Shown: positions 4,591 to 31,390, counted from the stretch's first letter. The stretch is DNA of 64,000 nucleotides from Candidatus Omnitrophota bacterium (GCA_013287965.1 JABDCU010000007.1:440-64439), one strand, 5' to 3'. The notes: generated by a model from the sequence alone, not told the origin. Program-made: numbers and translations.

Positions 4591-4657
4591 ATATAAAGTA
4601 TGCAATGGATTTAGGTGAAAAACAAGGCCTGGAGGGCACTTTTGAGAAAGCGCTTTC

Positions 4658-5385: not shown

Positions 5386-5430
5386 GTGAATAGTTTAACA
5401 TTACTGACGGACCGAAACAAGCAGGCTTCT

Positions 5431-5856
5431 CTATTCTTCCCACGCGATGTCTTCCGCGGATGTGGCCGCGGCCGTTTGGGTTTCCATCGGCCTGTCAGAG
5501 GACACGGCTGGCTGCGGCTCCTCGGCATTATTTTGCCTCTTGGGCATAAAATGAACGGCATTCGCCGTGATCCGCACGCGGCTCTGGGCCTTGCCGTCCT
5601 TCTCCCAGCGGTCTTGGCGCAAACGGCCTTCCACAATAATACCGCTTCCTTTGGTCAAATATTTGGAACAGTTTTCCGCAGCAAGCCCCCAGACTTCAAC
5701 GTCAAAATAGGAAACTTCGGTCACTTTCTCGCCGTTCTTGGTGTACACGCGATTGTTGGCGATGGAGAGACTGCATACTGATTTTCCCGAAGGAATATAT
5801 TTCATTTCCGGGTCCCGCGTCAAATTACCCATAATATTCACGCTGTTTAAGCTCAT
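5431..5856 (-). CDS. ssb: Single-stranded DNA-binding protein
   Basis: OB-fold signature NIMGNLTRDPEMKY...FDVEVWG...IIVEGRLRQDRWE, followed by a low-complexity acidic tail. Confidence 0.9.
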   Translation of the reverse strand: MSLNSVNIMGNLTRDPEMKYIPSGKSVCSLSIANNRVYTKNGEKVTEVSYFDVEVWGLAAENCSKYLTKGSGIIVEGRLRQDRWEKDGKAQSRVRITANAVHFMPKRQNNAEEPQPAVSSDRPMETQTAAATSAEDIAWEE

Positions 5857-5876
5857 AAATTTTTCCTTTCTTGAAA

Positions 5877-6734
5877 TTAGTGAATGTTCTTTTGCCCTTG
5901 TTTTGGTAAAAAATTTTGTTTTGAAATGACCTTCGTGCCAGTCTGTTGTTCAATGTCTTTCCATGTTCTTCCGGCAACCGCCCCTCCATCTTTGGCATCT
6001 TTTTGCAAATGAAAAACCCCCTGCGAATCTCTGTCTTGAGTGATCCTGGTAGTTGCCGCCTCGCCTAACATGGTGATGATCAGTTCCAAGTCCGTCATAT
6101 GGTCCCGTAAATTCTGCCTCTTAAGGGCTTTGTGTTTCTTATAATCATCCACCTTCATGTCAAACGCGCCCTGCATGATCTCATTGGTAAGGATTGCGTA
6201 ATCCTGATCTGTGCCGGCACCCCGGCCATCCCATTCATCCGTTAATTTCTGGCGCACAGCAATACCGCGCAGACGTTTTTCTATCCAATCTTTGGGATAG
6301 CCTTTTTTCTCATACAGGGCCTTGGTCCTTTGCATACCAAGTTCCGGATTCTCAATTTCATCCAAACGTTCCTTGGCAACTCTCGCAAGCCACTGCTTAA
6401 ATGGCTCAGCTTTCTTAGATGGAATTGATTGAATAATGCGGAACACCCCTTCAGCATTAGCACAATCTGTCTGATAATATTTACCATCCGAAGACTTCAA
6501 TTTGAGTTGTCGACAAATTGTCGACAACTCAATTCCTGCTTCATCCTTTTCCCTAACCTTCATTTTATACCAATAATCACGCGGATTGTCACTGTCTGTC
6601 AATACCGCAACAACGTCAATGACAGAAAACCACCATTCACCGGAAACAAAAATCTTACGTACCTGTCGGCCTTTAAAAACAGCTATTTTGGTCATTTCTT
6701 CTGATTTCATAAGAGCATCTCCGATTTTATCCAC
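5877..6734 (-). CDS. BRO-N domain protein, DinD-like (DNA-damage-inducible protein D family)
   Basis: The N-terminus (VFKGRQVRKIFVSGEWWFSVIDVVAVL) resembles a BRO-N domain. The gene lies directly downstream of lexA. Confidence 0.7.
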   Translation of the reverse strand: MDKIGDALMKSEEMTKIAVFKGRQVRKIFVSGEWWFSVIDVVAVLTDSDNPRDYWYKMKVREKDEAGIELSTICRQLKLKSSDGKYYQTDCANAEGVFRIIQSIPSKKAEPFKQWLARVAKERLDEIENPELGMQRTKALYEKKGYPKDWIEKRLRGIAVRQKLTDEWDGRGAGTDQDYAILTNEIMQGAFDMKVDDYKKHKALKRQNLRDHMTDLELIITMLGEAATTRITQDRDSQGVFHLQKDAKDGGAVAGRTWKDIEQQTGTKVISKQNFLPKQGQKNIH

Positions 6735-6788: not shown

Positions 6789-7418
6789 TCACTCATCAAA
6801 ATCCGGGATTACCGTTACCACCACACCCTGTATCTGAAAATCTTTGGTCAGGACAATAGACTGGTGCTGTTTGTTTTTTGATCTTGGGGCTAGAACAAAT
6901 GTTTCAGCGCCTATGCGGAATTCTTTAATGGTGGCTTCATCATCAATGAGGGCCACCACCGTGTCCCCGTTTTGAGCAGTTGTCTGCTGGCGCACTAAAA
7001 CCAAGTCGCCATCATTAATGCCCTTCTGGTCCATCGAATCACCACGGGCCTTGAGCAAAAAATACCGGTACGGCGGCCGGGCCAGCTTTGTACTGACCGA
7101 GATCATCCCCTGGATGTTCTCTTCTGCTAACATCGGCGTCCCACAAGCAACCATCCCTATTAAAGGAACATCAATTGTCTGGGCCCGCGTGGTATCTTCC
7201 GCTAAATTCCTGGTAAATTGCAAGCCCCCATCCACTTTACGGCGCAATATGCCTTTTTTGATCAACTTATTGACAATTAAAGAAGCTGAGCGGGGAGAAC
7301 GATAGCCAAGGGAACTCATCAGTTCACGCATGGTAGGAATGCGGCCAACGTGCATGAGGGAATTACGGATTTCACGAATTGCTTCTGATTCTTTACCGGT
7401 TATTCTTTCTGCGGACAT
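6789..7418 (-). CDS. lexA: LexA repressor (S24 peptidase)
   Basis: N-terminal winged HTH, cleavage region VACG, catalytic GDSM, and Lys in ATIKEF. Confidence 0.9.
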   Translation of the reverse strand: MSAERITGKESEAIREIRNSLMHVGRIPTMRELMSSLGYRSPRSASLIVNKLIKKGILRRKVDGGLQFTRNLAEDTTRAQTIDVPLIGMVACGTPMLAEENIQGMISVSTKLARPPYRYFLLKARGDSMDQKGINDGDLVLVRQQTTAQNGDTVVALIDDEATIKEFRIGAETFVLAPRSKNKQHQSIVLTKDFQIQGVVVTVIPDFDE

Positions 7419-10665: not shown

Positions 10666-11403
10666 TTACGAATAATTCCTCGCCACCCGATGATACGCTC
10701 CCCATGATTCTAAATATTTAATCGCTTCCTTCGATTTTGGCTCTTTTAGGAGCTTATTAAAGTCTTTAAGATACCTCTGCGGCTTGATTGTATCAAGCAC
10801 TTTAATTTTTATGGCGGATTTTAAGAGTTTCAAAGTTTTGGCCTCGATCTTGAAACCCAGCCGCGCTTTAAAACGGGCGAGGCGCAAAATACGGGTCGGA
10901 TCATCCAGAAAACTTTTGTCGTGCAGGACACGCAGACTTTTCTTGTTCAAATCAGCCTTTCCTTTAAAAGGATCCACGAGCTTCCCCCACGTCTTGGGAT
11001 TGATCGCGATGGCCATGGCATTGACCGTGAAATCCCGGCGGAAAAGATCATCCTTGATCGTTGACGGCTCAACCGCCGGATAGGCGCCGCCGCGCGTGTA
11101 GCTTTCTTTACGGGCAGTGGCAAAATCAACCAGGGTCCCATCAGGCAAACGCACAGTAGCTGTCTTAAAAGCAGGATACCGCGTCACCACCGCGCCGGGA
11201 TGCAAAGCCGCAAAACGATCCGCCAAGCGCATAGCGTTACCTTCAATAGTAATGTCCAAGTCAAGGCCAGAGAGCCCTAGCATCAAGTCCCTCACCGGTC
11301 CGCCCGCCAAATAAGCCTCAACACCCTTAACCTGGGCCAAAACTCCAATTTCCCGTACCAAGGTCAAAGATTTCGGATTTAAATAAGATAATAAGTTTTT
11401 CAT
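10666..11403 (-). CDS. Poly(A) polymerase / CCA-adding enzyme family nucleotidyltransferase (short form)
   Basis: LAGGPVRDLMLG...DLDI head-domain motif and RDFTVNAMA. Confidence 0.7.
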   Translation of the reverse strand: MKNLLSYLNPKSLTLVREIGVLAQVKGVEAYLAGGPVRDLMLGLSGLDLDITIEGNAMRLADRFAALHPGAVVTRYPAFKTATVRLPDGTLVDFATARKESYTRGGAYPAVEPSTIKDDLFRRDFTVNAMAIAINPKTWGKLVDPFKGKADLNKKSLRVLHDKSFLDDPTRILRLARFKARLGFKIEAKTLKLLKSAIKIKVLDTIKPQRYLKDFNKLLKEPKSKEAIKYLESWGAYHRVARNYS

Positions 11404-12283
11404 TTCCTTGGATGAAATTCTTTATGCACCTTCTTTAAACGCTCCTTGTCCACATGCGTGTATATCTGGGTGGTGGAAATGTCCGCGTGCCCCAGCATTT
11501 CCTGGACAGAACGCAGGTCTGCCCCGTGTTCCAATAAATGAGTTGCAAAAGTATGGCGCAGGGTGTGCGGCTTGATCGTCTTTTTAATATTCGCGCGACG
11601 GGCGTAAAGCTTGATCACCGCCCACAAACTCTGACGGCTGATCTTTTTGCCCAAACGGCTTAAAAACAAGACATCATTGGTCTGGCTTTTCAGTAATTGG
11701 GGACGGGCTTTGAGCAAATATTTCTGCACAGCCTCACGGGCCTTCTTGCCCAAAGGGATGATCCTCTCCTTACTCCCCTTGCCCACGGCCCGCACAAAAC
11801 CCACGTCATGATCAATACTGCCGGTCTTCAAATCCGCTAACTCCGAGACCCGTAAGCCGCTGGCATAAAAAATTTCCAATATCGCCGCATCCCTGATCTG
11901 TTGGGGCTTTCTGCCCGAGGCTGCTGCGATCATCGCCTCGATCTCTCCTAAAGTCAATACAGAAGGGACCCTTTGCCATAATTTCGGCGTATCCACCAGG
12001 GTCGTGGGGTCTTCCTTACTCAAATTTTCCCGCACTAAAAAACGATGGAACATTTTGATCGCCGCCAAGTTCCGGCCGATGGTCGTGGCGGACATATCAT
12101 GTTTTTTCAGGTCAAACATGAAATCAGAAACATGCTCACGTTTGACCGGGGCAGCGGCTTTGATGCCTTTTTGGGAAAGATAATCGATGTATTTGTCAAG
12201 ATCGCGCCGGTAAGCCATCAAAGTATTCTTGGCCAGCCCACGCTCGACGGAAAGGTAATTCATGAACTCGTCGATAAGATCTT

Positions 12284-12287
<4 letters not shown>
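11400..12287 (-). CDS. xerD: Tyrosine recombinase XerC/XerD
   Basis: C-terminal HTLRHTFATHLLEHGADLRSVQEMLGHADISTTQIYTHV (R-H-R-Y catalytic set). Confidence 0.85.
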
Positions 12288-15061
<2,774 letters not shown>

Positions 15062-15162
15062 TGGCGGGACTCCTTCAGAGCTCCTCCGAAGCCGGCCGCT
15101 GCTCGCTCGGACCAGTGGCGCTCGCAGTCGGCTTCGAATCCGACATGGATCCAATCTAAAAA

Positions 15163-15236
15163 TCGGGAAGGCGGGATTCGAACCCACGACCTCTTCGTCC
15201 CGAACGAAGCGCGCTAGCCAACTGCGCTACTTCCCG
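15163..15236 (-). tRNA. tRNA-Pro (anticodon CGG)
   Basis: Manual cloverleaf: acceptor CGGGAAG/CTTCCCG, D stem GCGC/GCGC, anticodon stem CTTCG/CGAAG with loop TTCGGGA, T arm GTGGG-TTCGAAT-CCCGC. Length 74 nt; CCA is not encoded. Confidence 0.9.
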
Positions 15237-15255
15237 AAAGCTGCCTAAATCTTAA
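15196..15255. repeat. Left 60-bp direct repeat (att-like); covers tRNA-Pro nt 1-41 plus 19 nt of 5' flank
   Basis: Identical, by manual alignment, to 21896..21955 (offset exactly 6700 bp). Confidence 0.9.
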
Positions 15256-15311
15256 TAAGGGCGCTATTTTAACAGGCTGGGAGCTTGAGGTCAACAACCA
15301 TGCGAGGGTTA

Positions 15312-15773
15312 CTAAAATTCTTTAAGACGAAACATTTTTGTCTTTTGATTGAAGGCAATTTCCTGAAAGAGATCAAAGAAGCCGTCTCTCCCCAAAAACC
15401 CTATACCTTTAGTATTCAGCTTGGTAGAAAACCCCGCATGGCACTCAAAGATCCAAGGTTCATCTTTGATAATCGCTTCCACCTTCACATCATGGAAATA
15501 CAATATCTCTTTGCCACCAATTCCATAGGTGGCCACATCCTTGCCTCCAAAAACATCCAGGCCTGCAAGCTCTCCTAAATTGGCTGGAAAGACACAGAAA
15601 TCTGCGCCAGAATCAACAACGCAATCAAAATCAAAACGCTCATAATTCTTATAAAACAAAGATATTTTTAAAATGGGAGCGTGGATTATTTTTGGGGGAG
15701 CGTTACCCTGGGCCCGTATTTGAATCTTTTTATATGGAATGGTAACGTAACTCAAAAGGCAATGGCCACCCAT
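15312..15773 (-). CDS. Retropepsin-like aspartyl protease
   Basis: The VVDSGADF motif (D-S-G-A) in a ~150-aa protein. Confidence 0.65.
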   Translation of the reverse strand: MGGHCLLSYVTIPYKKIQIRAQGNAPPKIIHAPILKISLFYKNYERFDFDCVVDSGADFCVFPANLGELAGLDVFGGKDVATYGIGGKEILYFHDVKVEAIIKDEPWIFECHAGFSTKLNTKGIGFLGRDGFFDLFQEIAFNQKTKMFRLKEF

Positions 15774-15967
15774 GAGCCATCAGGGACTTTAACCAAATGT
15801 GGACGGGCCTCACCTTTTTTCCGGGCCTGGTTCAAAACAGCTTTAGGACTACTGGCGACACTAACAACGTACGTGTCATCTTGTGATAGGGCCACCCAAC
15901 GGCCTGGGTATGGTTTAATTAACTGATTAACAGACATTGCTCTAGGTTGTTTAAGTCTCGATTTCAT
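15752..15967 (-). CDS. Small protein paired with the aspartyl protease (DUF5678-like by recollection)
   Basis: 71 aa with GRWVALSQDDTYVV...PHLVKVP. It overlaps the downstream protease gene by 22 nt. Confidence 0.45.
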   Translation of the reverse strand: MKSRLKQPRAMSVNQLIKPYPGRWVALSQDDTYVVSVASSPKAVLNQARKKGEARPHLVKVPDGSWVAIAF

Positions 15968-16033
15968 ATTTTTAATATACTCCTACGCCTTATTCTGGTC
16001 AAGGATCAATGTCCAATTTTTACCCAAAAGAAT

Positions 16034-16840
16034 TTATATAGTTATGTGAAAGCCTGAACCCACTGTCTTCTTAATCGTAATCATTCCATCTTTACGCGTA
16101 CTCAATACATACCGTCTATCAGGTCCCCCATTCCAAATAATACCTGAAGCATGCCCACCGTAATCGTGCTCCTGCGTATCATGGACTATTTCTTTGTCTG
16201 ATATCAATATAATTTGTGGGTGGCAATGATCAAAGACTTCAGCACAGTAACCAGTTGTTCTTCCATGATGGGAAGCTATGAAAATTTTTGTTTTAGCCAA
16301 ATATGCGCAAAACAATGGATTTTTGAGTAATTCAAGCCATCCCGCAGTTTCAAGGTCCCCCGTGAAGGCTACTCCCATACCATCATAAAACACAAACGAT
16401 ACCAGACTTAAATTGTTTGTGTCTGTAAAGGTTGGGTATGGATTACAAAAAGTCTGAAAATCAATATTGGGGAATAACGGAGGGTTAGCTATCGTATGAA
16501 TATAGTCACTATGTATACCAACGGCCGACGACATAGCAGTTGTTAAAGGACCACCATCAAATTTTAGGAGCATTAGTTGTTGCGCTGTTAATGTTTGGTT
16601 GCGGAAAAATCGTGTTACAGGAAATCGAGCAAGAACATTTGGAAGATCACTTACGTGGTCCTGATCAAAATTCTGAATAATGAGATGATCGATTTTAGTA
16701 CAGCCAATAGCCGATAGCCAAGATGACGGACAAAATTTTGTTTCTTGATTATCCCCGCAATCAAATAACATTATATTGCCATTATCAGCAATGAGCAGGC
16801 CACAAAAGCCATGAGCAACGTCAAAAATGCGGATTTCCAT
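16034..16840 (-). CDS. MBL-fold hydrolase (ComEC-type, degenerate first motif)
   Basis: FDCGD, NFDQDHVSD, FTGDLE and ASHHGRTTG motifs. Confidence 0.65.
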   Translation of the reverse strand: MEIRIFDVAHGFCGLLIADNGNIMLFDCGDNQETKFCPSSWLSAIGCTKIDHLIIQNFDQDHVSDLPNVLARFPVTRFFRNQTLTAQQLMLLKFDGGPLTTAMSSAVGIHSDYIHTIANPPLFPNIDFQTFCNPYPTFTDTNNLSLVSFVFYDGMGVAFTGDLETAGWLELLKNPLFCAYLAKTKIFIASHHGRTTGYCAEVFDHCHPQIILISDKEIVHDTQEHDYGGHASGIIWNGGPDRRYVLSTRKDGMITIKKTVGSGFHITI

Positions 16841-16871
16841 TTTGTCCTCTTCAAATCCCTATCGTATAATT

Positions 16872-17885
16872 TCAATTTATAAGATGTCCAAGGTGTTCTT
16901 TAATTATAAACTTTGCAGATTGCTTTCCTTTATCTTTTAATAACTGCAATGCTTTCCCCTCTACCGGATTAAAATCAGTCTTATACCGATTTACAAGAGC
17001 TAACTCTTCTTCCCCCCAACCCAACTGCAAATCTGGATGTGTACTGTCCATTTTAATCGTGCCTAAATAAGGAATTTCCTTGTTTTTATATAAAATAAAC
17101 ATCTTATTGTAGATTAAAGATTTGATCCGACGTGTTGCGGTTGCATACGATCCTTTTAAACCACCCAAAATAGATTTAGCTAAATCCTTTTCTTCCACAT
17201 AATCCGAAGAGGAAGCATCGCTAACAATAAGCGTCTCGCAACTCTGGTTAAGAATGGAAATCTTCTCATCCTTGTCTGGCATTAAGGCGTTAGCTCCTAA
17301 GCAATCATACGCACCTCCATCGGTTAGATATACATACTGATCATTTGGTAATTTTAATCTCTTAGGTAAGAAGATTAACGGATATGAAGCAGAATAGGCA
17401 ACAGCCTGACTTAAAGATAAACTGGGTAAGGCATGGCCACCTGTTTTATATGAGCCGCAAATTTCTCTGCTAAATTTAAAATTAGTTCCAGTCTTTAAAT
17501 CTGCTGCATTTAAAATTAAAGTCGGTCGATCTGGGATTTCTGCCAGCTTGGTGCCATGAAAAATCATTTTATCTAAGACCGTGGCAAGCTCATCAGCATC
17601 AATGCCTCTATTAAAAATCAATGAACAATACTGTTTTAAATTCTTTAGTGGAGATTCCAACCCATCTTTAAGAATCAAATCAGTTTTCTGACAGAAAGTA
17701 TCCCAATCTTTCGAATGAACAGCCCACAGGGCCCCAATAACTGCCCCACCAGATATTGCAGAAACTACATCAATTTTTTGGTCAATCTTTAACTCATGAA
17801 ATGCTTCAAAGACACCATAATGAAAAGCTATCGCCCTACTGCCGCCACCGGAAAGTGCTAATCCAACACCTTGTTTATTCACCAT
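16872..17885 (-). CDS. Patatin-like phospholipase
   Basis: Oxyanion GGGSRA, nucleophile elbow AISGGA, and catalytic Asp in LTDGGAYD. Confidence 0.85.
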   Translation of the reverse strand: MVNKQGVGLALSGGGSRAIAFHYGVFEAFHELKIDQKIDVVSAISGGAVIGALWAVHSKDWDTFCQKTDLILKDGLESPLKNLKQYCSLIFNRGIDADELATVLDKMIFHGTKLAEIPDRPTLILNAADLKTGTNFKFSREICGSYKTGGHALPSLSLSQAVAYSASYPLIFLPKRLKLPNDQYVYLTDGGAYDCLGANALMPDKDEKISILNQSCETLIVSDASSSDYVEEKDLAKSILGGLKGSYATATRRIKSLIYNKMFILYKNKEIPYLGTIKMDSTHPDLQLGWGEEELALVNRYKTDFNPVEGKALQLLKDKGKQSAKFIIKEHLGHLIN

Positions 17886-17894
17886 AAATCATTC

Positions 17895-18731
17895 CTAGCT
17901 TGGAATGCTTTCAGTCTTAAAATCACCTGGAATAGCTTTAGTTATAAGCGACACCCCTCCATCAACATTTGTACAATGCACATGCTTGGCAGTACGGCTA
18001 TACACGGCGAGGGCCTGATTATCTGGATGCCCATACTGATTGTCCACTCCCGCACTAATTAATACGGTATTAGGTTCTATTGAAAGTATTGACGCGGGAT
18101 GAGTACCATTCTTTGATCCGTGGTGCGCAGCAGCCATAACATCAGATTTCAAGGATTTTCCAAAGAATGAATTTATCTTTTCCCATCTTCCATTCTCAGT
18201 ATCACCTGTTATTAAATATGAGAATCCGCCCGTTCCTTTGCCGGTTAATTTAAGCACTATGCTACAGTTATTAGAAGAATCCATATCATCGATATGGGGA
18301 GAAAATAGCTCAAAGTCAAAATTAGATGAAAGACCCGTAAGTTGACGATGCGTTAAGCGATCTAATCTGACCGAAACCTGTTTTAAAGGATCTGCTGAAT
18401 TACGCCTAGCCGACTCTTGCTCCCTTATTAATTTGAATACCGCTTTCGCCTCGTCGCTATTCTTATAATACATAGGATACATTACCCAATCAGGACGATA
18501 CTTAAGCAAAACGATTGAAGTACCCACAATATCGCAATGATCGGAATCAAAACCCGTTAATATAAGACCCTTAACATTGTGCTCCTTCAATGATACGGCA
18601 AGGATTTCTTTTACATAAGCAACGGTATTGTTATCAGCGGGCGGAATACGGGAATCCACTATAATCGCTTCTTTATTGTGCCTTACGATAGTAAATGCAC
18701 CTTGGCCAACATTGACCGTAATAATGTTCAT
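17895..18731 (-). CDS. MBL-fold hydrolase (ComEC C-terminal-domain-like)
   Basis: VNVGQG, GFDSDHCD, ITGDTE and AAAHHGSKNG motifs. Its ATG overlaps the JAB stop codon (ATGA). Confidence 0.7.
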   Translation of the reverse strand: MNIITVNVGQGAFTIVRHNKEAIIVDSRIPPADNNTVAYVKEILAVSLKEHNVKGLILTGFDSDHCDIVGTSIVLLKYRPDWVMYPMYYKNSDEAKAVFKLIREQESARRNSADPLKQVSVRLDRLTHRQLTGLSSNFDFELFSPHIDDMDSSNNCSIVLKLTGKGTGGFSYLITGDTENGRWEKINSFFGKSLKSDVMAAAHHGSKNGTHPASILSIEPNTVLISAGVDNQYGHPDNQALAVYSRTAKHVHCTNVDGGVSLITKAIPGDFKTESIPS

Positions 18732-19648
18732 ACCCTATCCCTGTTAATATAAAGCTCCCGGTTAATATCTCTCTCTATGCTTAATACGGCATGCCTCGCG
18801 GATTTAAAAGCACGATCTTTATAACGCTCCAGAATTTCAGCGATAGGCAATCCTTCGTCGTTGGCAGCAGTAATTGAATATACCCACGCGCCGTCCTGAT
18901 CACTTTCTATTACCAGCGCGTCCAGGCAGGTATTGCCAATGAGGTCTAATTTCCCTTTCCAATAAAAGACATTGGTCTTCTTTGACAACAAGGGCTTAAG
19001 ATTTGGATGGAACTCTTCAAAAAACTCTTGATCCTTGGCGCGCTCTTCATTTATTTTGACTTTCACTTCTGCTCTAGCCTTGGTCTTAGCTATATCGGGA
19101 GCCGGTGTCGTAGTTTGCGGCCAAACGAGGGGCTCATCTGTAATGTGCACTTTAGAATCGGGGATTTCGTAAATGTTATCATCATTCCGACGCAGAAAAT
19201 AATGCCTAATTACATACCTTTCTTTTGAGCCATGCTTTTTCTCAATGACCAACAAGGCATAATAGAAATCTGTATTATGCATATGGTGATTCACGGTTCT
19301 TTGGTATGTCGCTCTATCGCCCGAACTTAAAGTAGTTAGCCCATTCATGTGATGGGTGTGCCAACTTCCAAGATGTTCTATGGCAGGGTACTTCTCTTCC
19401 ACCATCCTAAAGATTTTTGCTTGGTGTTCTCTGTCCGGGATAAAAATGGTTGCTGATCTGGTTACTTGCGAACCGGGCTCAATAATCCCTTGGACTTCAA
19501 TTTTATATTTATTGCCCTTCTTTTGATATGCTCCAATAATCCTACCGCCGGTTTCATCAAGATCATATCGATCACATTCATCAAAGATCACGTTGAGCGC
19601 ATTTTTAGAAATATAAACTTCAACATCTGGTTTCTTAAAATTAAACAT
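18728..19648 (-). CDS. JAB/MPN+ metalloprotease with an uncharacterised ~150-aa C-terminal extension
   Basis: ETGGRIIG plus a JAMM-like SWHTHHMNGLTTLSSGD motif. I chose the start at 19648 because of the strong GGAGGAGG 2 nt upstream; the track ORF begins at 19678. Confidence 0.8.
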   Translation of the reverse strand: MFNFKKPDVEVYISKNALNVIFDECDRYDLDETGGRIIGAYQKKGNKYKIEVQGIIEPGSQVTRSATIFIPDREHQAKIFRMVEEKYPAIEHLGSWHTHHMNGLTTLSSGDRATYQRTVNHHMHNTDFYYALLVIEKKHGSKERYVIRHYFLRRNDDNIYEIPDSKVHITDEPLVWPQTTTPAPDIAKTKARAEVKVKINEERAKDQEFFEEFHPNLKPLLSKKTNVFYWKGKLDLIGNTCLDALVIESDQDGAWVYSITAANDEGLPIAEILERYKDRAFKSARHAVLSIERDINRELYINRDRV

Positions 19649-20492
19649 CGCCTCCTCCTTTTGCCACACAGACGGCACAACTATCTTGCCGATCTAAAGT
19701 AAACCTTTGTAATTGAAAATGCTTCTTAAACGGATGTACCGGTCGATTGCCCCAAACTAAGTAATTTTCATCTATCAAATGTAAATATTTTGGTCGCTCC
19801 TTTAAGCGCCGGGCCACAGCATCTAGTACATACCTGGTATGAAACGAAGTAATGAAAGAAATGTCTACCACGAGGCCGGGAGAATCCTTTATTTCCGATA
19901 CTTCCATTCCATAAATCTTCTCCCTCTCTTCATCAGAGACCAGGTCTATTTCTTTTATGCCCTCTCTATAGGTAGTCCTCTGTAAAAAGGACTCCAAGCA
20001 CGCTAAGCAGCCCAAGCCAGGTCGGTAACTAAAGACCTCACCGCCAATGCCGCGGGTAAAAACTCTACCCACAACAAAGGGAATTTCATTCTTTACGCAA
20101 AGCTCATTGATTCTATAACGGGACGGCTCGTTATCAGTCGCCAGAACAACCACATCAGACGAACGGATTTCTTCTTCTATACCCGGGAAGTTCATTATGT
20201 CAGTATCAATCTTCTTAACGTTAACATTTGGGTTTCTGTCCTGCAAAATCTCCATCAATGCGTCAACCTTCTTGCTTCCTATAAATCGTCTTCCGCAAAC
20301 ATGCCTGATCACATTTTCAGGCCCAAGGGTATCGCGATCCAAAAGCGTAAAATTCCGTATGCCGGACATGACGAGCTGTAATGCTACGCTCCCGCCCCCT
20401 GATCCACAACCAGCCACTAGCACTTTAACCGGGGCTAAAAGCTGAATATCGAAAAGGGACTCTATTCTCTCAAATGTTTTGTCTTGTTTCAT
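19641..20492 (-). CDS. E1-like ThiF/MoeB-family adenylyltransferase
   Basis: VAGCGSGGGS Rossmann loop, LDRDTLGPENVIRH, LATDNEPSR, and two Cys pairs (CLAC, CAVC). Confidence 0.85.
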   Translation of the reverse strand: MKQDKTFERIESLFDIQLLAPVKVLVAGCGSGGGSVALQLVMSGIRNFTLLDRDTLGPENVIRHVCGRRFIGSKKVDALMEILQDRNPNVNVKKIDTDIMNFPGIEEEIRSSDVVVLATDNEPSRYRINELCVKNEIPFVVGRVFTRGIGGEVFSYRPGLGCLACLESFLQRTTYREGIKEIDLVSDEEREKIYGMEVSEIKDSPGLVVDISFITSFHTRYVLDAVARRLKERPKYLHLIDENYLVWGNRPVHPFKKHFQLQRFTLDRQDSCAVCVAKGGGDV

Positions 20493-21012
20493 GTGACCCC
20501 TCTAACCATTGACCAGTCTTCCGCCATTTTGCATACTGTTTAAGCCAACCCCTCGCTAAGTCCAACGCGTGCGTGACGTCGTAGCTTTTAGCATTCCAAG
20601 TTGTTACTGACCCAAATATAGCTAATGATCCATCGTGCCAGCGATTAGGTGTATTAGGCAAGACACCTGCTGCATAAATCCGTGGAGCAGAGTTAGGATA
20701 CCCATGAGGCAAGATGATACTGACCAGAATATTCTCTCCAGCGGCGGTCTCATGGAAATTAATCTCAAGCTCTTGTTGTTCATTAATGGTTAGCTTATAA
20801 CTCTCTTTTCTATCTTTCAGCTTGTTTCGCTCTTCCGTTATTCTATCGGGAGAAATATCTGGCAAGAGAAATGAAACAGGGACAAGACATGCCTTAGGTT
20901 CGCCATTTCTCTCAATCACGAACACTTCCCCGTCCCTAGCAACTCGATCAAGCACCTCTCCAGGGGAACTTCTCAACTCCATCATTTTTAAAATCTTAAA
21001 GTCAATTTTCAT
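20470..21012 (-). CDS. Phd/YefM-like N-terminal domain fused to a Cys-less E2 (UEV-like) domain
   Basis: The N-terminus (ELRSSPGEVLDRVARDGEVFVIERNGEPKACLVPVS) resembles Phd/YefM antitoxins. The C-terminus is paralogous to 21021..21392, with Ala where the paralogue has Cys (GSLAIFG versus GNICYLH). I chose the start at 21012 (AGGA upstream); an alternative is 21048. Confidence 0.55.
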   Translation of the reverse strand: MKIDFKILKMMELRSSPGEVLDRVARDGEVFVIERNGEPKACLVPVSFLLPDISPDRITEERNKLKDRKESYKLTINEQQELEINFHETAAGENILVSIILPHGYPNSAPRIYAAGVLPNTPNRWHDGSLAIFGSVTTWNAKSYDVTHALDLARGWLKQYAKWRKTGQWLEGSHETRQNI

Positions 21013-21020
21013 AACCGTCC

Positions 21021-21392
21021 TTAATGTTTGATCTCGGCGCCTGGCCATTTACCTTGTCGCTTCCAAACTTCATATTTATTTAGCCATTTTGCTGCCCGCG
21101 CCATCACAAAAGAAATATTATGAATGCCGGGATTCCACATGGTAGGATGAAGATAACAAATATTCCCATTTTGATACTTATGGGGCGCGGCTGTTACAAT
21201 CGGAGCATCGATAAACACCCGTGGCATTTCATTGGGATAGCCTGAGAACCTAACTGATAAAATATACATTTGATCTGCGGCCTGCAGGGCTGCCTTTAGA
21301 TAAACTTGGCCATCAACGGTTGGATGAAGCTCTAAATGATGAAAATTTCTTTGGGCTTCTAAAAATTCTCTTTTAATGCGATTAATATCCAT
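21021..21392 (-). CDS. E2-like (UBC-fold) protein with a candidate catalytic Cys
   Basis: GYPNEMPRVFI...PHKYQNGNICYLHPTMW resembles the E2 YPxxPP / HPN...GxIC core. Confidence 0.6.
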   Translation of the reverse strand: MDINRIKREFLEAQRNFHHLELHPTVDGQVYLKAALQAADQMYILSVRFSGYPNEMPRVFIDAPIVTAAPHKYQNGNICYLHPTMWNPGIHNISFVMARAAKWLNKYEVWKRQGKWPGAEIKH

Positions 21393-21404
21393 GCTACCCT
21401 CTTT

Positions 21405-21572
21405 TCAATATTCTCCGCCTAAATCTTCTTTCATTGTGATGGGTTTTTTCCCAGTAAGATCAGCGGTAGTTTGTCCCAATGCTCTAATTTCACCGTTTGG
21501 AAGGATTTGTATGGGCGTTTCTTCTTCGCTGTTCAATAAAGCCTGTAATTCTTGGATCGTTGGTTTTGCCAT
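21405..21572 (-). CDS. 55-aa protein ending ...EDLGGEY (candidate conjugated tag)
   Basis: GGAGG lies 5 nt upstream of the ATG at 21572. It is the first gene of the operon. A diglycine sits 2 residues from the C-terminus. Confidence 0.5.
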   Translation of the reverse strand: MAKPTIQELQALLNSEEETPIQILPNGEIRALGQTTADLTGKKPITMKEDLGGEY

Positions 21573-21603
21573 AATAACCTCCTGTTCATTGATACAATTG
21601 CAC

Positions 21604-21634
21604 ATACTATGACGATTGAATCGTTTTTTGTCAA
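21604..21634 (-). promoter_or_regulatory. Candidate promoter plus palindromic operator for the island operon
   Basis: On the minus strand: TTGACA (21629-21634), the 13-bp palindrome ACGATTGAATCGT (21612-21624) in the spacer, then CATAGT/TAGTAT (21604-21611). Confidence 0.3.
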
Positions 21635-21821
21635 GGATTTTTTTCTCAAACGAGCTTAGTCCAATTTAAAAGACCAAATTTTAACCCCCGCTCCGAGAAG
21701 GCTACAGTAGAAGACCTACACAAAATCTTCAAAAGTCTGCAAAGTTTGACCCTCCCCCAGTGTCAATCTAGTGTCAAACCACACACAGATCAGCACTAAA
21801 TAGCAGTAATCAAGCATACAC

Positions 21822-21848
21822 AAAAAAACCTTCTCATCGACGAGAAGG
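21822..21848 (-). terminator. Rho-independent terminator just inside the right island end
   Basis: CCTTCTC-N6-GAGAAGG stem followed by T7 on the minus strand. Confidence 0.55.
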
Positions 21849-21895
21849 TATGTAATTTAATGAATTTGAATTAGTTATGAAATGTACTTAGGACA

Positions 21896-21955
21896 CGTCC
21901 CGAACGAAGCGCGCTAGCCAACTGCGCTACTTCCCGAAAGCTGCCTAAATCTTAA
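21896..21955. repeat. Right 60-bp direct repeat (partial tRNA-Pro 5' half plus flank)
   Basis: Identical to 15196..15255. There is no tRNA 3' half next to it. Confidence 0.9.
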
Positions 21956-21969
21956 AAATAAATCAAAAG

Positions 21970-22329
21970 CTACACAGGTATCAAAGATTCAAAAGGAATG
22001 TTCAATTTATCATGCAAATTGCGGATCATTTTTAAACTTAGATTCCGTTTTCTATGAAAAATTTCAGAAACCCTGTTGCCTCCCCCAAGAATACCGGCTA
22101 TATCGGACTTTTCAAGCCCCATCTGCCCCATACGGAATTTGATGGCTTCGATTGGATCCGGAGGCAGCATAGAATAGTGTTTATTTTCATAAGCTTCAAC
22201 CAGAGTAACAAGGATGTCGAGCACGTCCCCTTGCGCAGTACCCAATTTAGCGTCCCATAAACGGTCAATTAAATCCAAAGCTTTGTCATGATCCTCTTTT
22301 GAATAGATCGGTTGGATTTTAATTCTCAT
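21970..22329 (-). CDS. HigA-like HTH antitoxin / XRE-family regulator
   Basis: C-terminal HTH (KSDIAGILGGGNRVSEIFHRKRNLSLKMIRNLHDKL) and an N-terminal helical domain typical of COG5499-type antitoxins. The start at 22329 follows a GGAG. Confidence 0.65.
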   Translation of the reverse strand: MRIKIQPIYSKEDHDKALDLIDRLWDAKLGTAQGDVLDILVTLVEAYENKHYSMLPPDPIEAIKFRMGQMGLEKSDIAGILGGGNRVSEIFHRKRNLSLKMIRNLHDKLNIPFESLIPV

Positions 22330-22376
22330 GATCATATCTCCTTTGCATCCACAAATTCCCATTTTGGGAAGTTTTT

Positions 22377-28606: not shown

Positions 28607-31390
28607 TTATGATGCAGTCAACTGTGCCAAGATAGGCGATGCGGAAGCCGGCCTGATCTCAAGGATCACCGGTACCAGCCCGTCAATGTGGATTTGGGCC
28701 AAGTCCTGCTGGCTCACTGGCAAGGGTACGCCGTTGCCATCACGCTTGATATGCAAGTCCAAATGCGCGGCATTCATGTCAATACCGCCCAAATGATCAA
28801 GTTTGTCCGCTGTTATACCATGTATCATCGCCGAACTGGACGTAGTGAAGGACATCAGGCCATCAAACATCTCATGCAAATTTTTCTGATATTCCTCTCT
28901 CAGCGGCTGGCCGACAACAGGCCTATACTGTAACAATTGATCTTCTTCCAGCTGTAAAAAAGCGCTCAACTCAAACCCATCACCGCTCAAAACAGCCTCG
29001 GTGCTCAGACCATCACCGGAATGCTGCGCTACCAGCGTAAGTGTGACCCCATTGGCGAATACGATCTTATGACTATGCTCATTAAATGAAGTCACTTCCA
29101 CGTCTCCCAGCAAGGCAGTGTAAAACTTGTGCATCGTCTCACGGATCCCAAAATGGCCATAAATCTCACGCAACAGGTCCTGATCATCTTTAATAAGCCC
29201 TTGACCAGGAACATATGAACTATTAAAGATCTTTGCCCCGAATACATAAAAATTAAATGCATGGCCCTGATAACTGATATTGACCCTTGTTCGAGTCGCC
29301 CAACCCGCGGATCCTATCTCCAATGAAAGCCCAACTCCATTGGTGAACCTTACCTCGACAGAATGTTCCGGCAATAACTTGCAATAGGAAACCTCGGGTT
29401 TTCCTAAAAAAACATTTTCAAATGCCAGCCTCGCATCTTCATGATGGACCGTCATCGCCTCATCGGGGGAAAATAATTTATTAATTCTTTGGTTTGTCTT
29501 ATACTCCTTAGTTGTCATTAAACCTTCAGGGCTGTGATGGTCCAGATCTTCATCCAAGAACTCAGTCGTGAATACCCATATGATCGCAGAATGCTCCGGC
29601 ACAGGCACTAATTTAAAGTTAATATGCCTGCCGGGACCCGCAAGCGGTCTTATGAAAACCACTTTTACAAGTTTGGATTTATAATATAATTTTTTCCCTT
29701 CATGAATCTCAAGTCCATTGCTAAAAACAAATTCTTTATCGCTCTTACCAATGACGATCTTTCCAATTTCTTCTAATTTGTGGACAACGTCATGGAGCTT
29801 TGTTCTCTGCCCCTCCGCCGAAATCGGGTTTATTGCTGCTATCGCTCCAGCACCGGCAATTCTTAAGAAATCCCTGCGCCCCATCTTGTTGTCATTCGCC
29901 TTCATCGCCGTATCGTGGCCGGTCCCCTGTTCCTGAAGCTCCTCTATGTCCCGCAAGATCTGTTCGATTTCTTTGAACTCTTTAGAATCAGATGGATATT
30001 TATATTTTTCCAACTGTTCATCCAATTTCACGAATATTTCTTTAAGGATAACCCTGTATTTTTCAGAAATGGGAACTGAAGGACTGGATTTTTGCCGAAT
30101 TTCAATTAACCTTTCCTTGGCTGAAGTAATTCTCTCCTGCGGTGACATCCTGACTGGCCTTATACCATAACCTTCCTTATACTGATCGGGAAGACCAGGG
30201 GGAATGATTCTTTTTCTTTTCACCCCCATCGCCGCGTCTTTGGGATCCATTGATACAGTGGCAAAGTCAAATTGCCTGCGCGTTCCCAAACTTACTACTG
30301 TTGCCATTGCTGCACTTCTATCTCCTTGAACATGCCTTGTTAAAGCCAAGCTTCCGTCAATTCCTAATAAAGAAGTCCCTCCCGAAAAATACTTCCTTGG
30401 GATCGTTTCATTAGTATATTTATCCACATCCTCTTTAATATAGTTAAACACGCCTTTTTTATAGGCTTTCAGGTATTGCCGATAAATGGCTTCGTTATTC
30501 TTGGGGTTTTGGTCAACGCCCTTGAGCTTGGCTTTATTAGCATAAATTCTAGCCAATAATGATTCCCTTAATGCGCGCTTATACCAGGCAGCAAGGATCA
30601 TCCCGCTAAAGACCTGCCGTAACGGAGCGAAATTCTTGTCTTCATTGACTTCTTTTTCTAATTGGGGAAGGACTACTTCGCGGACTACTTGGGAACCTAT
30701 TGCATGAGATTTGTCATGCTGTGAATGACGGCTTAAAGACAGATAATCTTCTTCCAGCATTACCTTCAAATGACTTTTATAGAGATAGGCGATATTGCCT
30801 TTTTCATAGATATCTGCTTCATCCGGCACGATCCATACCTTGTTAAAGGTATTGACCGGTATATTGATCGTCCCAAACTGCTTATAGGCGCGGCTGTAGA
30901 CTTCATCCCAAAATTTCTTGCCCAACTTGCCCTGCGGGTATATTAAAGAAGCAGTGATCTGTTTAAGCAGATAATCCTGGGCCAATAGATCACGGCCCAT
31001 TTCGGTTTTGCCGAAATCATCCTTAATAATGCGGTTCTTTTCATACGGGCTAAGATTGACCCATTGGTCTTCATCAGGGACTGCCAAAGAAGCCAAAAAA
31101 TATTTGATCAACTTTGTATACTCTTCTTTTTTCTGAACCTCTGTAAAACCTTTGTCACCCTTATAAACAATAAAATCAAACTTAAAAGCGTTCTCCGGAT
31201 GGATGACAATGCCTTTTAAAAGAGCCGGGGTAAACTCAGGACTTAAATGCACCATCACACCTGGCTTGGGCAGATTTACTTCCCCGCCTACTGGCGAGGC
31301 AAGCTGCGCCCAGCTCTGCGGTATCAAGCCATTGGCCAAAAAGGCAAACAAAACAAATACAGAGATTATTTTTCTCATTTTAGTCTTCAA
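28607..31390 (-). CDS. Secreted multidomain protein (927 aa), paralogue of 1..4590
   Basis: Signal peptide MKTKMRKIISVFVLFAFLANGLIPQSWAQ. It shares the ~340-aa N-terminal domain ending RKYFSGG. An internal RRDFLRIAGAGAIAA motif lies at aa 503-527. The C-terminal module is GGIDMNAAHLDLHIKRDGNGVPLP...GLVPVILEIRP. Confidence 0.8.
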   Translation of the reverse strand: MKTKMRKIISVFVLFAFLANGLIPQSWAQLASPVGGEVNLPKPGVMVHLSPEFTPALLKGIVIHPENAFKFDFIVYKGDKGFTEVQKKEEYTKLIKYFLASLAVPDEDQWVNLSPYEKNRIIKDDFGKTEMGRDLLAQDYLLKQITASLIYPQGKLGKKFWDEVYSRAYKQFGTINIPVNTFNKVWIVPDEADIYEKGNIAYLYKSHLKVMLEEDYLSLSRHSQHDKSHAIGSQVVREVVLPQLEKEVNEDKNFAPLRQVFSGMILAAWYKRALRESLLARIYANKAKLKGVDQNPKNNEAIYRQYLKAYKKGVFNYIKEDVDKYTNETIPRKYFSGGTSLLGIDGSLALTRHVQGDRSAAMATVVSLGTRRQFDFATVSMDPKDAAMGVKRKRIIPPGLPDQYKEGYGIRPVRMSPQERITSAKERLIEIRQKSSPSVPISEKYRVILKEIFVKLDEQLEKYKYPSDSKEFKEIEQILRDIEELQEQGTGHDTAMKANDNKMGRRDFLRIAGAGAIAAINPISAEGQRTKLHDVVHKLEEIGKIVIGKSDKEFVFSNGLEIHEGKKLYYKSKLVKVVFIRPLAGPGRHINFKLVPVPEHSAIIWVFTTEFLDEDLDHHSPEGLMTTKEYKTNQRINKLFSPDEAMTVHHEDARLAFENVFLGKPEVSYCKLLPEHSVEVRFTNGVGLSLEIGSAGWATRTRVNISYQGHAFNFYVFGAKIFNSSYVPGQGLIKDDQDLLREIYGHFGIRETMHKFYTALLGDVEVTSFNEHSHKIVFANGVTLTLVAQHSGDGLSTEAVLSGDGFELSAFLQLEEDQLLQYRPVVGQPLREEYQKNLHEMFDGLMSFTTSSSAMIHGITADKLDHLGGIDMNAAHLDLHIKRDGNGVPLPVSQQDLAQIHIDGLVPVILEIRPASASPILAQLTAS

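What the first reader, a model, noticed from the sequence alone, without database searches (positions are those of the whole stretch)
15196..21955. 6.7-kb island bounded by perfect 60-bp direct repeats that duplicate the 5' half of tRNA-Pro(CGG); no integrase
Positions 15196-15255 and 21896-21955 are identical (offset exactly 6700 bp).

The repeat covers tRNA-Pro nucleotides 1-41, up to the 3' strand of the anticodon stem, plus 19 nt of upstream flank. So an intact tRNA lies at the left end and a 5'-half pseudo-copy at the right. Most tRNA-targeting elements I know duplicate the 3' part of the tRNA; a 5'-side duplication that ends in the anticodon arm is less common.

The interior looks clearly AT-richer than the flanks by eye. 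I see no tyrosine or serine recombinase inside, so the island may be immobilised or mobilised in trans. A tandem AGTGTCAA-N3-AGTGTCAA (21759-21777) and a terminator (21822-21848) lie just inside the right repeat.
Basis: seen in the sequence. Interest (0 to 1): 0.75.

Follow-up and report, generated by a model that had tools for sequence, protein, structure and literature searches.

The report
Integrase-less defence island at tRNA-Pro
A 6.7-kb AT-rich block carrying a ubiquitin-like (E2/E1/JAB) anti-phage-type operon sits in front of a proline tRNA gene of an uncultured Omnitrophota bacterium, framed by a perfect 60-base repeat; it looks like the decayed scar of a mobile island, an uncommon but known kind of event.

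Summary
Window 15196-15255 and 21896-21955 are identical. Each copy holds tRNA-Pro(CGG) nucleotides 1-41 plus 19 nt of leader. The repeat ends 2 nt past the anticodon loop.

The enclosed 6.64 kb is the lowest-GC stretch of the window (gene GC3 0.37 against 0.54). It holds no recombinase. The only tyrosine recombinase in the 64 kb is a syntenic housekeeping XerD.

The cargo has three parts:
- a conserved cassette of a 55-aa protein, E2, Phd/E2-like, E1, JAB and MBL, found elsewhere in defence-island and plasmid contexts;
- patatin and a second MBL as likely effectors;
- a separately mobile DUF5678/retropepsin-like pair, followed by a strong promoter for the intact tRNA.

An intrinsic terminator follows the displaced tRNA half.

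No same-species genome exists in any collection, so no true empty site could be found. Related species all differ at this locus and none carries the duplicate.

Best reading (about 0.5): a degenerate, non-autonomous island of the 5'-fragment, anticodon-loop type, probably the newer member of a decayed tandem array; an orphan higA lies just outside the right repeat.

Caveat: the promoter and pair at the left end are homologous to those of other Omnitrophota, so the repeats may not mark the true ends.

This is a new member of a known kind, of moderate interest.

The parts
15163..15236 (-). Intact tRNA-Pro(CGG) gene. Its 5' 41 nt lie inside repeat copy L.
   Evidence: ARAGORN; Rfam RF00005, 67.4 bits
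15196..15255 (.). Repeat copy L (attL-like): tRNA nt 1-41 plus 19 nt of leader.
   Evidence: sequence
21896..21955 (.). Repeat copy R (attR-like): a displaced 5' tRNA fragment (21896-21936) plus the leader. It is identical to copy L and diverges 2 nt after the anticodon loop.
15266..15294 (-). Sigma-70 promoter TTGACC-17-TAAAAT with an extended TG, driving the intact tRNA. It is homologous to the tRNA-Pro promoters of L002, L004, L005 and L006.
15312..15773 (-). 153-aa retropepsin-like protein (VVDSGADF motif). It is the second gene of a two-gene, TA-like mobile cassette.
   Evidence: Sequence. Pfam Asp_protease_2 and Peptidase_A3 are weak, E about 0.02. Homolog P0127 carries PF13650. L087 has the pair at 88% nt identity in another context.
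15752..15967 (-). 71-aa DUF5678 protein, the first gene of the pair. A promoter-like site lies at 15974-16002.
   Evidence: Pfam PF18929, E 1.7e-6
16034..16840 (-). 268-aa metallo-beta-lactamase-fold protein (PADLOC candidate PDC-M48B); a variable effector.
   Evidence: PADLOC 1.1e-50
16872..17885 (-). 337-aa patatin-like phospholipase; a variable effector.
   Evidence: Pfam PF01734, 1.9e-16. The Mesorhizobium operon also ends in a patatin.
17895..18731 (-). 278-aa MBL-fold protein (ComEC-type, weak 6A-MBL enzyme hit); the last gene of the conserved core.
   Evidence: NCBIfam; 69-76% aa identity in L093, L095 and L100
18728..19678 (-). JAB/JAMM isopeptidase with an extra C-terminal domain. The real start is probably at 19648 (306 aa).
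   Evidence: PADLOC JAB 7.5e-13; gene call; 889 homologs
19641..20492 (-). 283-aa ThiF/E1-like adenylyltransferase.
   Evidence: Pfam PF00899, 1.8e-30; PADLOC E1-E2 models
20470..21048 (-). Phd/YefM-like N-terminal domain fused to an E2-like domain.
   Evidence: paralogous to the E2
21021..21392 (-). 123-aa E2 (E2-CBASS family).
   Evidence: PADLOC E2 1.4e-12; PF26395 on record
21405..21572 (-). 55-aa protein ending in DLGGEY, the first gene of the operon. It is 80-91% identical in other operons.
21606..21634 (-). Operon promoter TTGACA-17-CATAGT. It is conserved, together with its 5' UTR, in L093 and L095. Cassette homology starts at about 21640.
21746..21777 (.). Three TTGACnCT/AGnGTCAA half-sites, possibly an operator. 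They are unique to this locus.
21828..21849 (-). Intrinsic terminator (9-bp stem plus U7), 47 nt downstream of the tRNA fragment.
21970..22362 (-). Orphan HigA-family antitoxin just outside copy R. GC3 is 0.405. It is absent from all relatives. Its start lies 14 nt from the fabZ stop and no higB is present. A weak promoter-like site, TTGATA-18-TATTTT, lies at 21955-21984.
11400..12287 (-). XerD, the only tyrosine recombinase in the window. It is a housekeeping gene, syntenic in all relatives, and is not part of the island.
   Evidence: NCBIfam TIGR02225, 379.7 bits against a cutoff of 329.6; Pfam; synteny

Best explanation
The segment is a degenerate, non-autonomous genomic island that entered the tRNA-Pro(CGG) gene by recombination at the anticodon loop, in the rarer orientation in which the incoming DNA replaces the 5' part of the tRNA.

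In this reading the incoming element carried, at one end, a promoter, a leader and tRNA nt 1-41. That end now forms the working tRNA together with the resident 3' half. The previous 5' half was pushed 6.7 kb upstream. There it is followed at once by an element-borne terminator, which stops read-through into the island's operon.

Because the 60-nt identity includes a fast-evolving leader, and because an orphan higA of foreign composition abuts the outer copy, the most coherent version is tandem accretion. A newer element integrated into the site regenerated by an older, related element. The older element has since been deleted down to higA, taking the native promoter with it.

The integrase is gone or was never carried, so any further movement would need a recombinase supplied in trans or in cis (CIME-like).

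Cargo: a horizontally spread cassette (55-aa protein, E2, Phd/E2-like, E1, JAB, MBL) with patatin and MBL effectors, presumably anti-phage, plus a TA-like DUF5678/retropepsin pair.

Shown: the repeat, the anatomy, the composition, the cargo homologies and the variability of the site.
Inferred: the recombination event, its direction, the tandem history and the defence function.
For: - Perfect 60-nt direct repeat in the accepted configuration: an end fragment, in the same orientation, with the 5' fragment upstream of the gene (criteria in PMC4383910).
- Identity stops 2 nt after the 7-nt anticodon loop, the commonest crossover sublocation (2083 of 3919 anticodon-centred sites).
- All 10 enclosed genes have low GC3, and the GC minimum of the window coincides with the segment.
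- The cargo core is 62-85% aa identical to operons beside restriction/helicase genes, SLFN-type ATPase and VapBC genes (L093-L096), and 47-73% to one beside an IS30 on a Mesorhizobium plasmid (L100). None of these has a tRNA nearby, so the cassette moves horizontally.
- A strong promoter sits on the island side of the intact tRNA, and a strong terminator follows the fragment.
- In a LigA tree the window groups with L084 and L086 (100 of 100 bootstraps). Both lack the pair and have a different, longer promoter-to-tRNA leader. The pair and promoter are shared only with L002 and L098 in the other clade, so this end is not simply inherited.
- The pair is mobile on its own: L087 has it at 88% nt identity with homology ending at the gene ends, and L098 has it flanked by 38-nt repeats.
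- higA is an orphan of foreign composition, 14 nt from fabZ.
- The same tRNA carries 3'-end fragment scars in L002, L086 and L098, so this tRNA is a recurrent recombination target in the clade.
Against: - No integrase or remnant lies in the island, and none other than the housekeeping XerD lies anywhere in the 64 kb.
- No empty site or attP form was found. The species is known from a single sample.
- The promoter next to the intact tRNA is homologous to the tRNA-Pro promoters of eight related species. Together with the pair it aligns collinearly with L002 at 80% nt identity, about the same as core genes. That is what a native, undisturbed locus would look like.
- No arm-type repeats are shared by the two putative attP arms. 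The P arm is almost entirely coding.
- Identity extending 19 nt into a non-conserved leader is unusual for an attP/attB pair and needs the tandem-element assumption.
- The other inserts at this site in relatives are ordinary genes, not mobile elements.
Confidence: 0.5

Rival explanations
1. Copy L, with both of its flanks (pair, promoter, leader, tRNA, acyP, ligA), is the native, undisturbed locus. The recently acquired DNA is the block from about 16000 to 22362 (cargo operon, 290-nt non-coding region, tRNA fragment, higA), inserted between fabZ and the resident pair by recombination that did not use the tRNA. Examples are replacement through flanking homology, or illegitimate or template-switch repair. 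The tRNA fragment is then a relic or templated filler inside that block, not an att site.
For: - The promoter-leader junction at copy L matches L004's fabZ-adjacent promoter-leader junction, and also L002, L005 and L006.
- There is a contiguous 894-nt alignment with L002 at 80% identity, starting exactly at the DUF5678 start codon.
- Cassette homology to other operons spans only about 21640 to 17895.
- higA beyond copy R is also foreign.
- There is no integrase and there are no arm sites.
- The fabZ-to-tRNA interval is generally hypervariable, with non-mobile genes in relatives.
Against: - It needs an ad hoc origin for a perfect 60-nt copy whose end falls at the anticodon loop.
- The window's sister genomes L084 and L086 lack the pair and have a different leader architecture, so 'native' would require several losses.
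- The pair is demonstrably mobile and has low GC3 like the cargo.
Confidence: 0.25
2. Assembly artefact. The chromosome really reads fabZ-higA-O-tRNA3', and the 6.7 kb is a separate circular molecule (an excised element) sharing the 60-mer, which the assembler threaded into the chromosome.
For: Logan contigs of the same run break inside the 60-mer. The island contig is exactly 6700 nt, which equals the interior plus two 30-nt (k-1) overlaps. This topology fits a loop as well as an insertion.
Against: - A 60-nt repeat is shorter than a read and is normally resolved by large-k assembly.
- The 6.7 kb has no replication or recombination gene, so it could not persist as a circle.
- The chromosome would be left with a tRNA lacking the clade's conserved promoter.
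- Even if true, the segment would still be an excisable element with the same att logic.
Confidence: 0.08
3. Ancient duplication of the tRNA promoter region, with unrelated genes accumulating in between.
For: Relatives show old small duplications of leader plus CGGGAAG between promoter and tRNA: L003, L004, L010 and L083.
Against: - None of 12 related loci has a second 5' half.
- The copies are 60 of 60 identical, whereas the old duplicates in L004 are only 85% alike.
- The copy lacks the promoter.
- The composition of the interior is foreign.
Confidence: 0.03
4. The tRNA 5' half is a functional part of the island. It would be a separately transcribed and terminated tRNA-half RNA, acting as a decoy or regulator for the adjacent defence operon, and kept identical to the tRNA by selection.
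For: A promoter-like site lies at 21955-21984 and a strong terminator lies 47 nt downstream. The copies are perfectly identical.
Against: - Homologous operons in L093-L096 and L100 have no tRNA gene nearby and no similarity upstream of the operon promoter.
- The fold is not unusually stable (z -1.6).
- The promoter match is only 9 of 12.
Confidence: 0.03

Closest known systems
tDNA-integrated genomic islands with a displaced 5' tDNA fragment (Islander class; 159 of 3919 islands, PMC4383910)
   Same: An intact tRNA plus a same-orientation end fragment upstream of it. Identity ends at the anticodon loop. The size lies within 2-200 kb. Composition is foreign. The island must supply the promoter and the 5' half.
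   Different: There is no integrase, which Islander requires. Identity extends 19 nt into the leader. The island-side promoter is homologous to native promoters of related species. No empty site is available.
CIMEs (cis-mobilizable elements): att-flanked islands that have lost their integration and transfer genes (ICEberg 2.0, PMC6323972)
   Same: Flanked by direct att-like repeats, with no recombinase and no transfer genes. Small cargo-only content. A plausible product of tandem accretion and deletion.
   Different: CIMEs are defined relative to a known cognate ICE in Firmicutes. Here no cognate element or integrase is known, and mobilisation is untested.
Tandem island arrays at tRNA genes (125 arrays in Islander, PMC4383910)
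   Same: A second foreign remnant (orphan higA) abuts the outer fragment. Each block ends in a TA-type gene next to the repeat.
   Different: Only one fragment and no integrases remain. The older member is reduced to one gene, so the array is inferred, not seen.
Cargo: 6A-MBL anti-phage system, type II CBASS Cap2/Cap3 and BilABCD
   Same: E2, E1 (ThiF) and a JAB peptidase together with an MBL-fold enzyme. The patatin effector resembles CBASS CapV. The neighbours in other genomes are defence-island genes.
   Different: E2, E1 and JAB are separate genes. NCBIfam 6A-MBL scores are far below cutoff. There is no CD-NTase and no beta-grasp Ubl. Instead there is an extra Phd/E2-like protein and an ultra-conserved 55-aa protein ending in GGEY.

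Membership tests
tDNA-integrated genomic island (Islander criteria) | Full tRNA gene plus a cognate end fragment in the same orientation on the same replicon | tested here: met
tDNA-integrated genomic island (Islander criteria) | Correct configuration: 5' fragment upstream (or 3' fragment downstream) of the gene | tested here: met
   The fragment at 21896-21936 lies upstream of the minus-strand tRNA at 15163-15236; criterion.
tDNA-integrated genomic island (Islander criteria) | Tyrosine integrase gene inside or overlapping the island | tested here: not met
   No recombinase domain in any of the 10 ORFs. The only one in the window is XerD at 11400-12287.
tDNA-integrated genomic island (Islander criteria) | Crossover at a canonical sublocation (anticodon loop or T-loop/acceptor junction) | tested here: met
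   Identity ends 2 nt 3' of the anticodon loop.
tDNA-integrated genomic island (Islander criteria) | Unoccupied site in a close relative, or detectable attP/attB | tested here: inconclusive
   Nearest LigA is 78-80% identical. The metagenome scan found one other-species locus and the viral scan found none. L004 shows fabZ-promoter-tRNA without an island, but it is another species.
CIME (cis-mobilizable element) | Retains attL and attR but lacks integration and transfer genes | tested here: met
   definition
CIME (cis-mobilizable element) | Mobilised by accretion with a cognate integrase-bearing element | not testable with these tools
   No cognate element was found. It needs the rest of the genome and read-level data.
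6A-MBL anti-phage system | Fused E2-E1-JAB (cap2_3) protein reaching the NCBIfam cutoff | tested here: not met
   NF058523 scores 44.1 bits (JAB) and 54.0 bits (E1) against a cutoff of 320. The domains are on three separate genes.
6A-MBL anti-phage system | Cognate MBL-fold enzyme | tested here: inconclusive
   NF058524 scores 38.7 bits against a cutoff of 220 for the 278-aa MBL.
Type II CBASS | CD-NTase (cyclase) gene | tested here: not met
   No cyclase among the island ORFs. The only 'Cyclase' hit is the E2-like tail of a fusion model.
BilABCD | Beta-grasp ubiquitin-like protein with a C-terminal glycine | tested here: inconclusive
   No Ubl domain was detected. The 55-aa protein ends in GGEY but has no family match and its structure was not modelled.
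Prophage / ICE | Capsid/terminase genes, or relaxase/T4SS genes | tested here: not met
   None in the island.

The most novel reading that the evidence does not exclude
The 60-nt duplication does not come from a lost classical integrase. It would mark a family of small integrase-free cassettes that carry a captured promoter, leader and tRNA 5' half. These would insert into tRNA-Pro using a host or unlinked recombinase (for example the XerD 2.9 kb away) or short-homology recombination. The displaced tRNA half would be transcribed and terminated as a discrete RNA next to a defence operon. That would be a new way for defence cargo to move in an uncultured phylum.
Probability: 0.08. Interest if true: 0.7.

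Novelty: new member of a known kind. Interest (0 to 1): 0.38.

Why it matters
If the reading is right, this is a clean example of how a defence operon is parked at a tRNA gene in Omnitrophota, a candidate phylum with no cultured representatives and almost no described mobile elements. It also illustrates the minority 5'-side mode, in which the island must bring the tRNA's promoter. Integrase-based island finders would miss it.

The cargo probably deserves more attention than the repeat. It is a widely spread, unnamed E2/E1/JAB/MBL operon led by an extremely conserved 55-aa protein ending in GGEY, which is a candidate non-ubiquitin-fold conjugation tag.

The island itself does not open a long-standing question.

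Tried and rejected
- **Empty site or same-species genome.** The genome-contig scan with LigA gave a best hit of 75% identity. The protein database gave a best of 78-80%. The metagenome scan with leader plus tRNA gave one locus from another species. The viral scan gave none.
- **Exact-protein look-ups.** FabZ, f130 and i153 returned only the same sample, with contigs broken at the repeat. The AcyP look-up failed, probably because the called start differs.
- **Integrase search.** None in the island. Reading all ORFs of at least 90 aa in the window found only XerD. It is rejected as the island's integrase because it is syntenic in every relative.
- **Arm-type sites.** No k-mers are shared between the putative P and P' arms beyond chance. 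AGTGTCAA is not enriched.
- **Second 5' fragments in relatives.** None in the other fetched loci.
- **Integrase or mobile-element genes in the other inserts.** Pfam on inserts in relatives found glycosyl- and acyltransferases or nothing. L098 carries an HTH_17 gene but no integrase within the contig.
- **Rfam.** Only the tRNA was found.
- **Vertical inheritance of pair plus promoter.** This was considered the main objection, then weakened by the LigA tree and by L087.
- **A 60-bp target-site duplication by a transposase.** Rejected for lack of any transposase and because no known bacterial system makes such long duplications (own knowledge).
- **Williams 2002.** The paper is not held in the library.

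Full report
**Observation.**
The repeat is real. Window 15196-15255 and 21896-21955 are identical over 60 nt (62 of 63 if extended to 15258 and 21958), with a start-to-start spacing of 6700. The window has one tRNA gene, tRNA-Pro(CGG), on the minus strand at 15163-15236 (ARAGORN; Rfam). Read in the tRNA's direction, each copy is 19 nt of leader followed by tRNA nt 1-41. Copy L continues into the rest of the tRNA (AAGAGGTCG...), while copy R continues as TGTCCTAAG.... The identity therefore ends 2 nt after the 7-nt anticodon loop.

**Anatomy (all genes on the minus strand, listed in the direction of transcription).**
- fabZ.
- 14 nt of spacer, then a 130-aa gene (f130, 21970-22362).
- 14 nt of spacer, then copy R.
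- 47 nt of spacer, then a strong intrinsic terminator (21849-21828 plus U7).
- Three TTGACnCT-type half-sites (21746-21777).
- A promoter, TTGACA-17-CATAGT (21634-21606).
- Eight genes: a 55-aa protein, E2, a Phd/E2-like protein, a ThiF-type E1, a JAB peptidase, an MBL-fold protein, a patatin and a second MBL-fold protein.
- A promoter-like site, then a DUF5678 gene overlapping a 153-aa gene with a retropepsin VVDSGADF motif.
- A near-consensus promoter, TTGACC-17-TAAAAT with an extended TG (15294-15266).
- Copy L and the intact tRNA.
- An acylphosphatase gene, ligA, a 175-aa gene and xerD.

The intergenic gaps inside the repeats are 31-290 nt, so there is no room for a decayed integrase.

**Composition.**
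The interior GC is 0.408 against 0.468 for the rest. The lowest-GC 6640-nt window of the 64 kb starts at 15401. GC3 of the ten interior genes averages 0.371 (range 0.31-0.44) against 0.539 for 53 other ORFs (Mann-Whitney p about 1e-6). The DUF5678/retropepsin pair is also low (0.39-0.40). So is f130 (0.405), which lies outside the right repeat.

**Where it comes from.**
LigA places the window in Candidatus Omnitrophota. The nearest LigA anywhere in 5.8 billion proteins is 78-80% identical, and the window's own protein occurs on a single 74-kb contig. There is therefore no conspecific genome and no true empty site. A metagenome scan with leader plus tRNA returned one locus of another species (L083). 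A viral scan returned nothing. An independent Logan assembly of run SRR8431262 reproduces the sequence exactly but breaks inside the 60-mer. One contig ends at 21926. The other is 6700 nt and runs from 21925 to 15226, that is, the interior plus two 30-nt (k-1) overlaps. This cannot tell an integrated from a circular form.

**The site in relatives.**
ribBA-ribH-nusB-PHP-ribD-ribE-fabZ on one side and (tRNA-Pro)-acyP-ligA-xerD on the other are syntenic. Between fabZ and the tRNA every species differs.
- L004 has nothing: the promoter starts about 10 nt after fabZ.
- L005 has 0.9 kb.
- L006 has a glycosyltransferase and an acyltransferase.
- L010 has a 3066-aa repeat protein.
- L084 has an epimerase fusion and a two-component system.
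- L086 has a deacetylase.

None of the other fetched loci has a second tRNA 5' half. The same tRNA carries other scars. L002 and L086 have a 17-18-nt repeat of its 3' end 105-120 nt downstream. In L098 that 3' fragment stands alone in front of acyP. The locus is a recombination hot spot, but most inserts are ordinary genes.

**The left end is the difficulty.**
The promoter beside the intact tRNA is homologous to the tRNA-Pro promoters of L002, L004, L005, L006, L083 and L086, including the spacer and discriminator. The window also aligns with L002 without a break from the DUF5678 start codon through the pair, the promoter and the tRNA (894 nt at 80%, about the same as ligA). Taken alone, this says that copy L with both flanks is native, which a simple attL/attR model does not allow.

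Three results weaken that reading.
- In a LigA neighbour-joining tree the window groups with L084 and L086 (100 of 100 bootstraps). Both lack the pair and have a different, longer leader architecture. L002 and L098, which have the pair, sit in the other clade among genomes that lack it.
- The pair moves by itself. L087 carries it at 88% nt identity, with homology ending at the gene ends, in front of a giant-protein gene that is only 62% identical to the window's. In L088 it follows a giant gene next to glycine-cleavage genes. In L098 it is framed by 38-nt repeats.
- The window's leader is 18 of 19 identical to the tRNA-proximal leader of L004, but matches those of its sister genomes less well, by my count of the alignment.

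**The right end.**
f130 is a HigA-family antitoxin. It matches PDB HigA chains 5ycl and 5ifg (E 0.003 over nearly its full length). It is 50-58% identical to plasmid genes annotated next to higB. Here it has no higB, starts 14 nt after fabZ, is absent from all relatives and has foreign composition. It looks like the last surviving gene of another foreign block.

**Recombinases.**
None lies in the island. Reading all ORFs of at least 90 aa in the window shows only the 295-aa protein at 11400-12287. It reaches the XerD equivalog cutoff (379.7 against 329.6 bits) and is syntenic in every relative. The putative attP arms share no repeated words beyond chance.

**Cargo.**
The JAB protein has 889 or more full-length homologs, the best at 65% identity. 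In L093/L094, L095/L096 and a Mesorhizobium plasmid the same order recurs: small protein, E2, Phd/E2-like, E1, JAB, MBL. In L093 and L095, E1 is 81-85% and E2 78-80% identical to the window, JAB 62-63% and the MBL 71-76%. The plasmid copy (L100) is more distant: E2 64%, E1 69%, JAB 47% and the MBL 69%. This core is followed by different effectors. It sits beside MmeI-type methyltransferase, SNF2/PLD helicase and DprA genes, beside an SLFN/AlbA ATPase and vapBC, or beside an IS30. No tRNA is nearby in L093-L096. DNA homology between operons starts at the operon promoter (about 21640) and not before it. The core is thus a horizontally moving, defence-island-type cassette. It resembles the experimentally validated 6A-MBL system (cited in PMC13276650) and CBASS Cap2/Cap3. 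It is not a member of either: NCBIfam 6A-MBL scores are 38-54 bits against cutoffs of 220-320, the domains are split over three genes, and there is no cyclase.

**Most likely mechanism (confidence about 0.5).**
The segment is a non-autonomous island of the 5'-fragment, anticodon-loop type. This class is known: Islander lists 159 of 3919 islands with a 5' fragment, accepts only the configuration seen here, and counts 2083 anticodon-centred sites (PMC4383910). The element end promoter-leader-tRNA(1-41) regenerates the gene. The displaced half is insulated by the element's terminator.

The identity block runs into the leader, the native promoter is missing next to fabZ, and an orphan higA abuts copy R. 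I therefore favour tandem accretion of two related elements followed by deletion of the older one.

With no integrase the island is either immobile or CIME-like. [quoted passage not shown]

**Rivals.**
- Copy L is native, and the fragment is a relic or filler inside a larger foreign block (about 16000 to 22362) that entered by other recombination: 0.25.
- A mis-threaded circle: 0.08.
- An ancient duplication: 0.03. This is largely refuted, because no relative has the duplicate and the copies are perfect, while a genuinely old duplicate in L004 is only 85% alike.
- A functional tRNA half: 0.03.

**Novelty and score.**
The repeat and island are a new member of a known kind: rare orientation, integrase-less, in an uncultured phylum. 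A specialist would not be very surprised. The unresolved left-end homology and the unnamed cargo operon give it some value. Interest is 0.38.

Noticed in passing
window 21405-21572 (-): The first gene of the operon encodes a 55-aa protein, MAKPTIQELQALLNSEEETPIQILPNGEIRALGQTTADLTGKKPITMKEDLGGEY. It is 80-91% identical in operons whose JAB is only 62% identical. It matches 246 representative clusters, usually ending at their C terminus, and P0333 is a fusion of it to the E2 with GGEY in the linker. It has no Pfam or NCBIfam family. It is a candidate conjugated tag processed by the JAB peptidase.
   Followed up: partly
window 15062-15160; L002 5374-5493; L086 4639-4756: A roughly 100-nt, about 90% conserved, structured segment lies between tRNA-Pro and acyP. 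In L002 and L086 it is closed by a 17-18-nt repeat of the tRNA 3' end, like a miniature 3'-side att scar. In the window the repeat is degenerate. There is no Rfam match.
   Followed up: partly
L003 2735-2938; L004 9530-9601; L010 9415-9490; L083; L084; L086: In six relatives, one or two 72-102-nt hairpin units sit between the tRNA-Pro promoter and the tRNA (tandem in L003). In L003, L004 and L083 each unit begins with a copy of the leader end plus CGGGAAG. These are small 5'-side duplications at the same gene.
   Followed up: partly
window 15312-15967; L087 7-633; L098 3028-3786; L088 9807-10465: The DUF5678 plus retropepsin-like (DSGA) gene pair behaves as an independent 0.65-kb mobile cassette in Omnitrophota. 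In L098 it is flanked by 38-nt direct repeats. It is often next to giant-protein genes.
   Followed up: partly
window 46396-46568: A 170-nt near-perfect palindrome (RNA fold -105 kcal/mol, z -14.7) in an intergenic region. A 91% identical copy sits at a different locus in L002 (9390-9556, just after xerD) and another in L010 (18830-18946). It is MITE-like and has no Rfam family.
   Followed up: partly
window 4822-6734: A second small low-GC3 patch holds a zeta-toxin-family gene (GC3 0.35) and a Bro-N domain gene (0.43), next to lexA at 6789-7418.
   Followed up: no
window 1-4605 and 28607-31390: Two very large secreted proteins share an N-terminal region (LPKPGV...HLSPEF...IHPEN). Related giant genes flank the DUF5678 pair in L002, L087 and L088, and fill the fabZ-tRNA gap in L010.
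   Followed up: no
L095/L096 138-5293: One homologous operon lies next to CarS-like (CDP-archaeol synthase family) and HMG-CoA reductase genes, so the cassette may also occur in archaea or in lineages with archaeal-type lipid genes.
   Followed up: no
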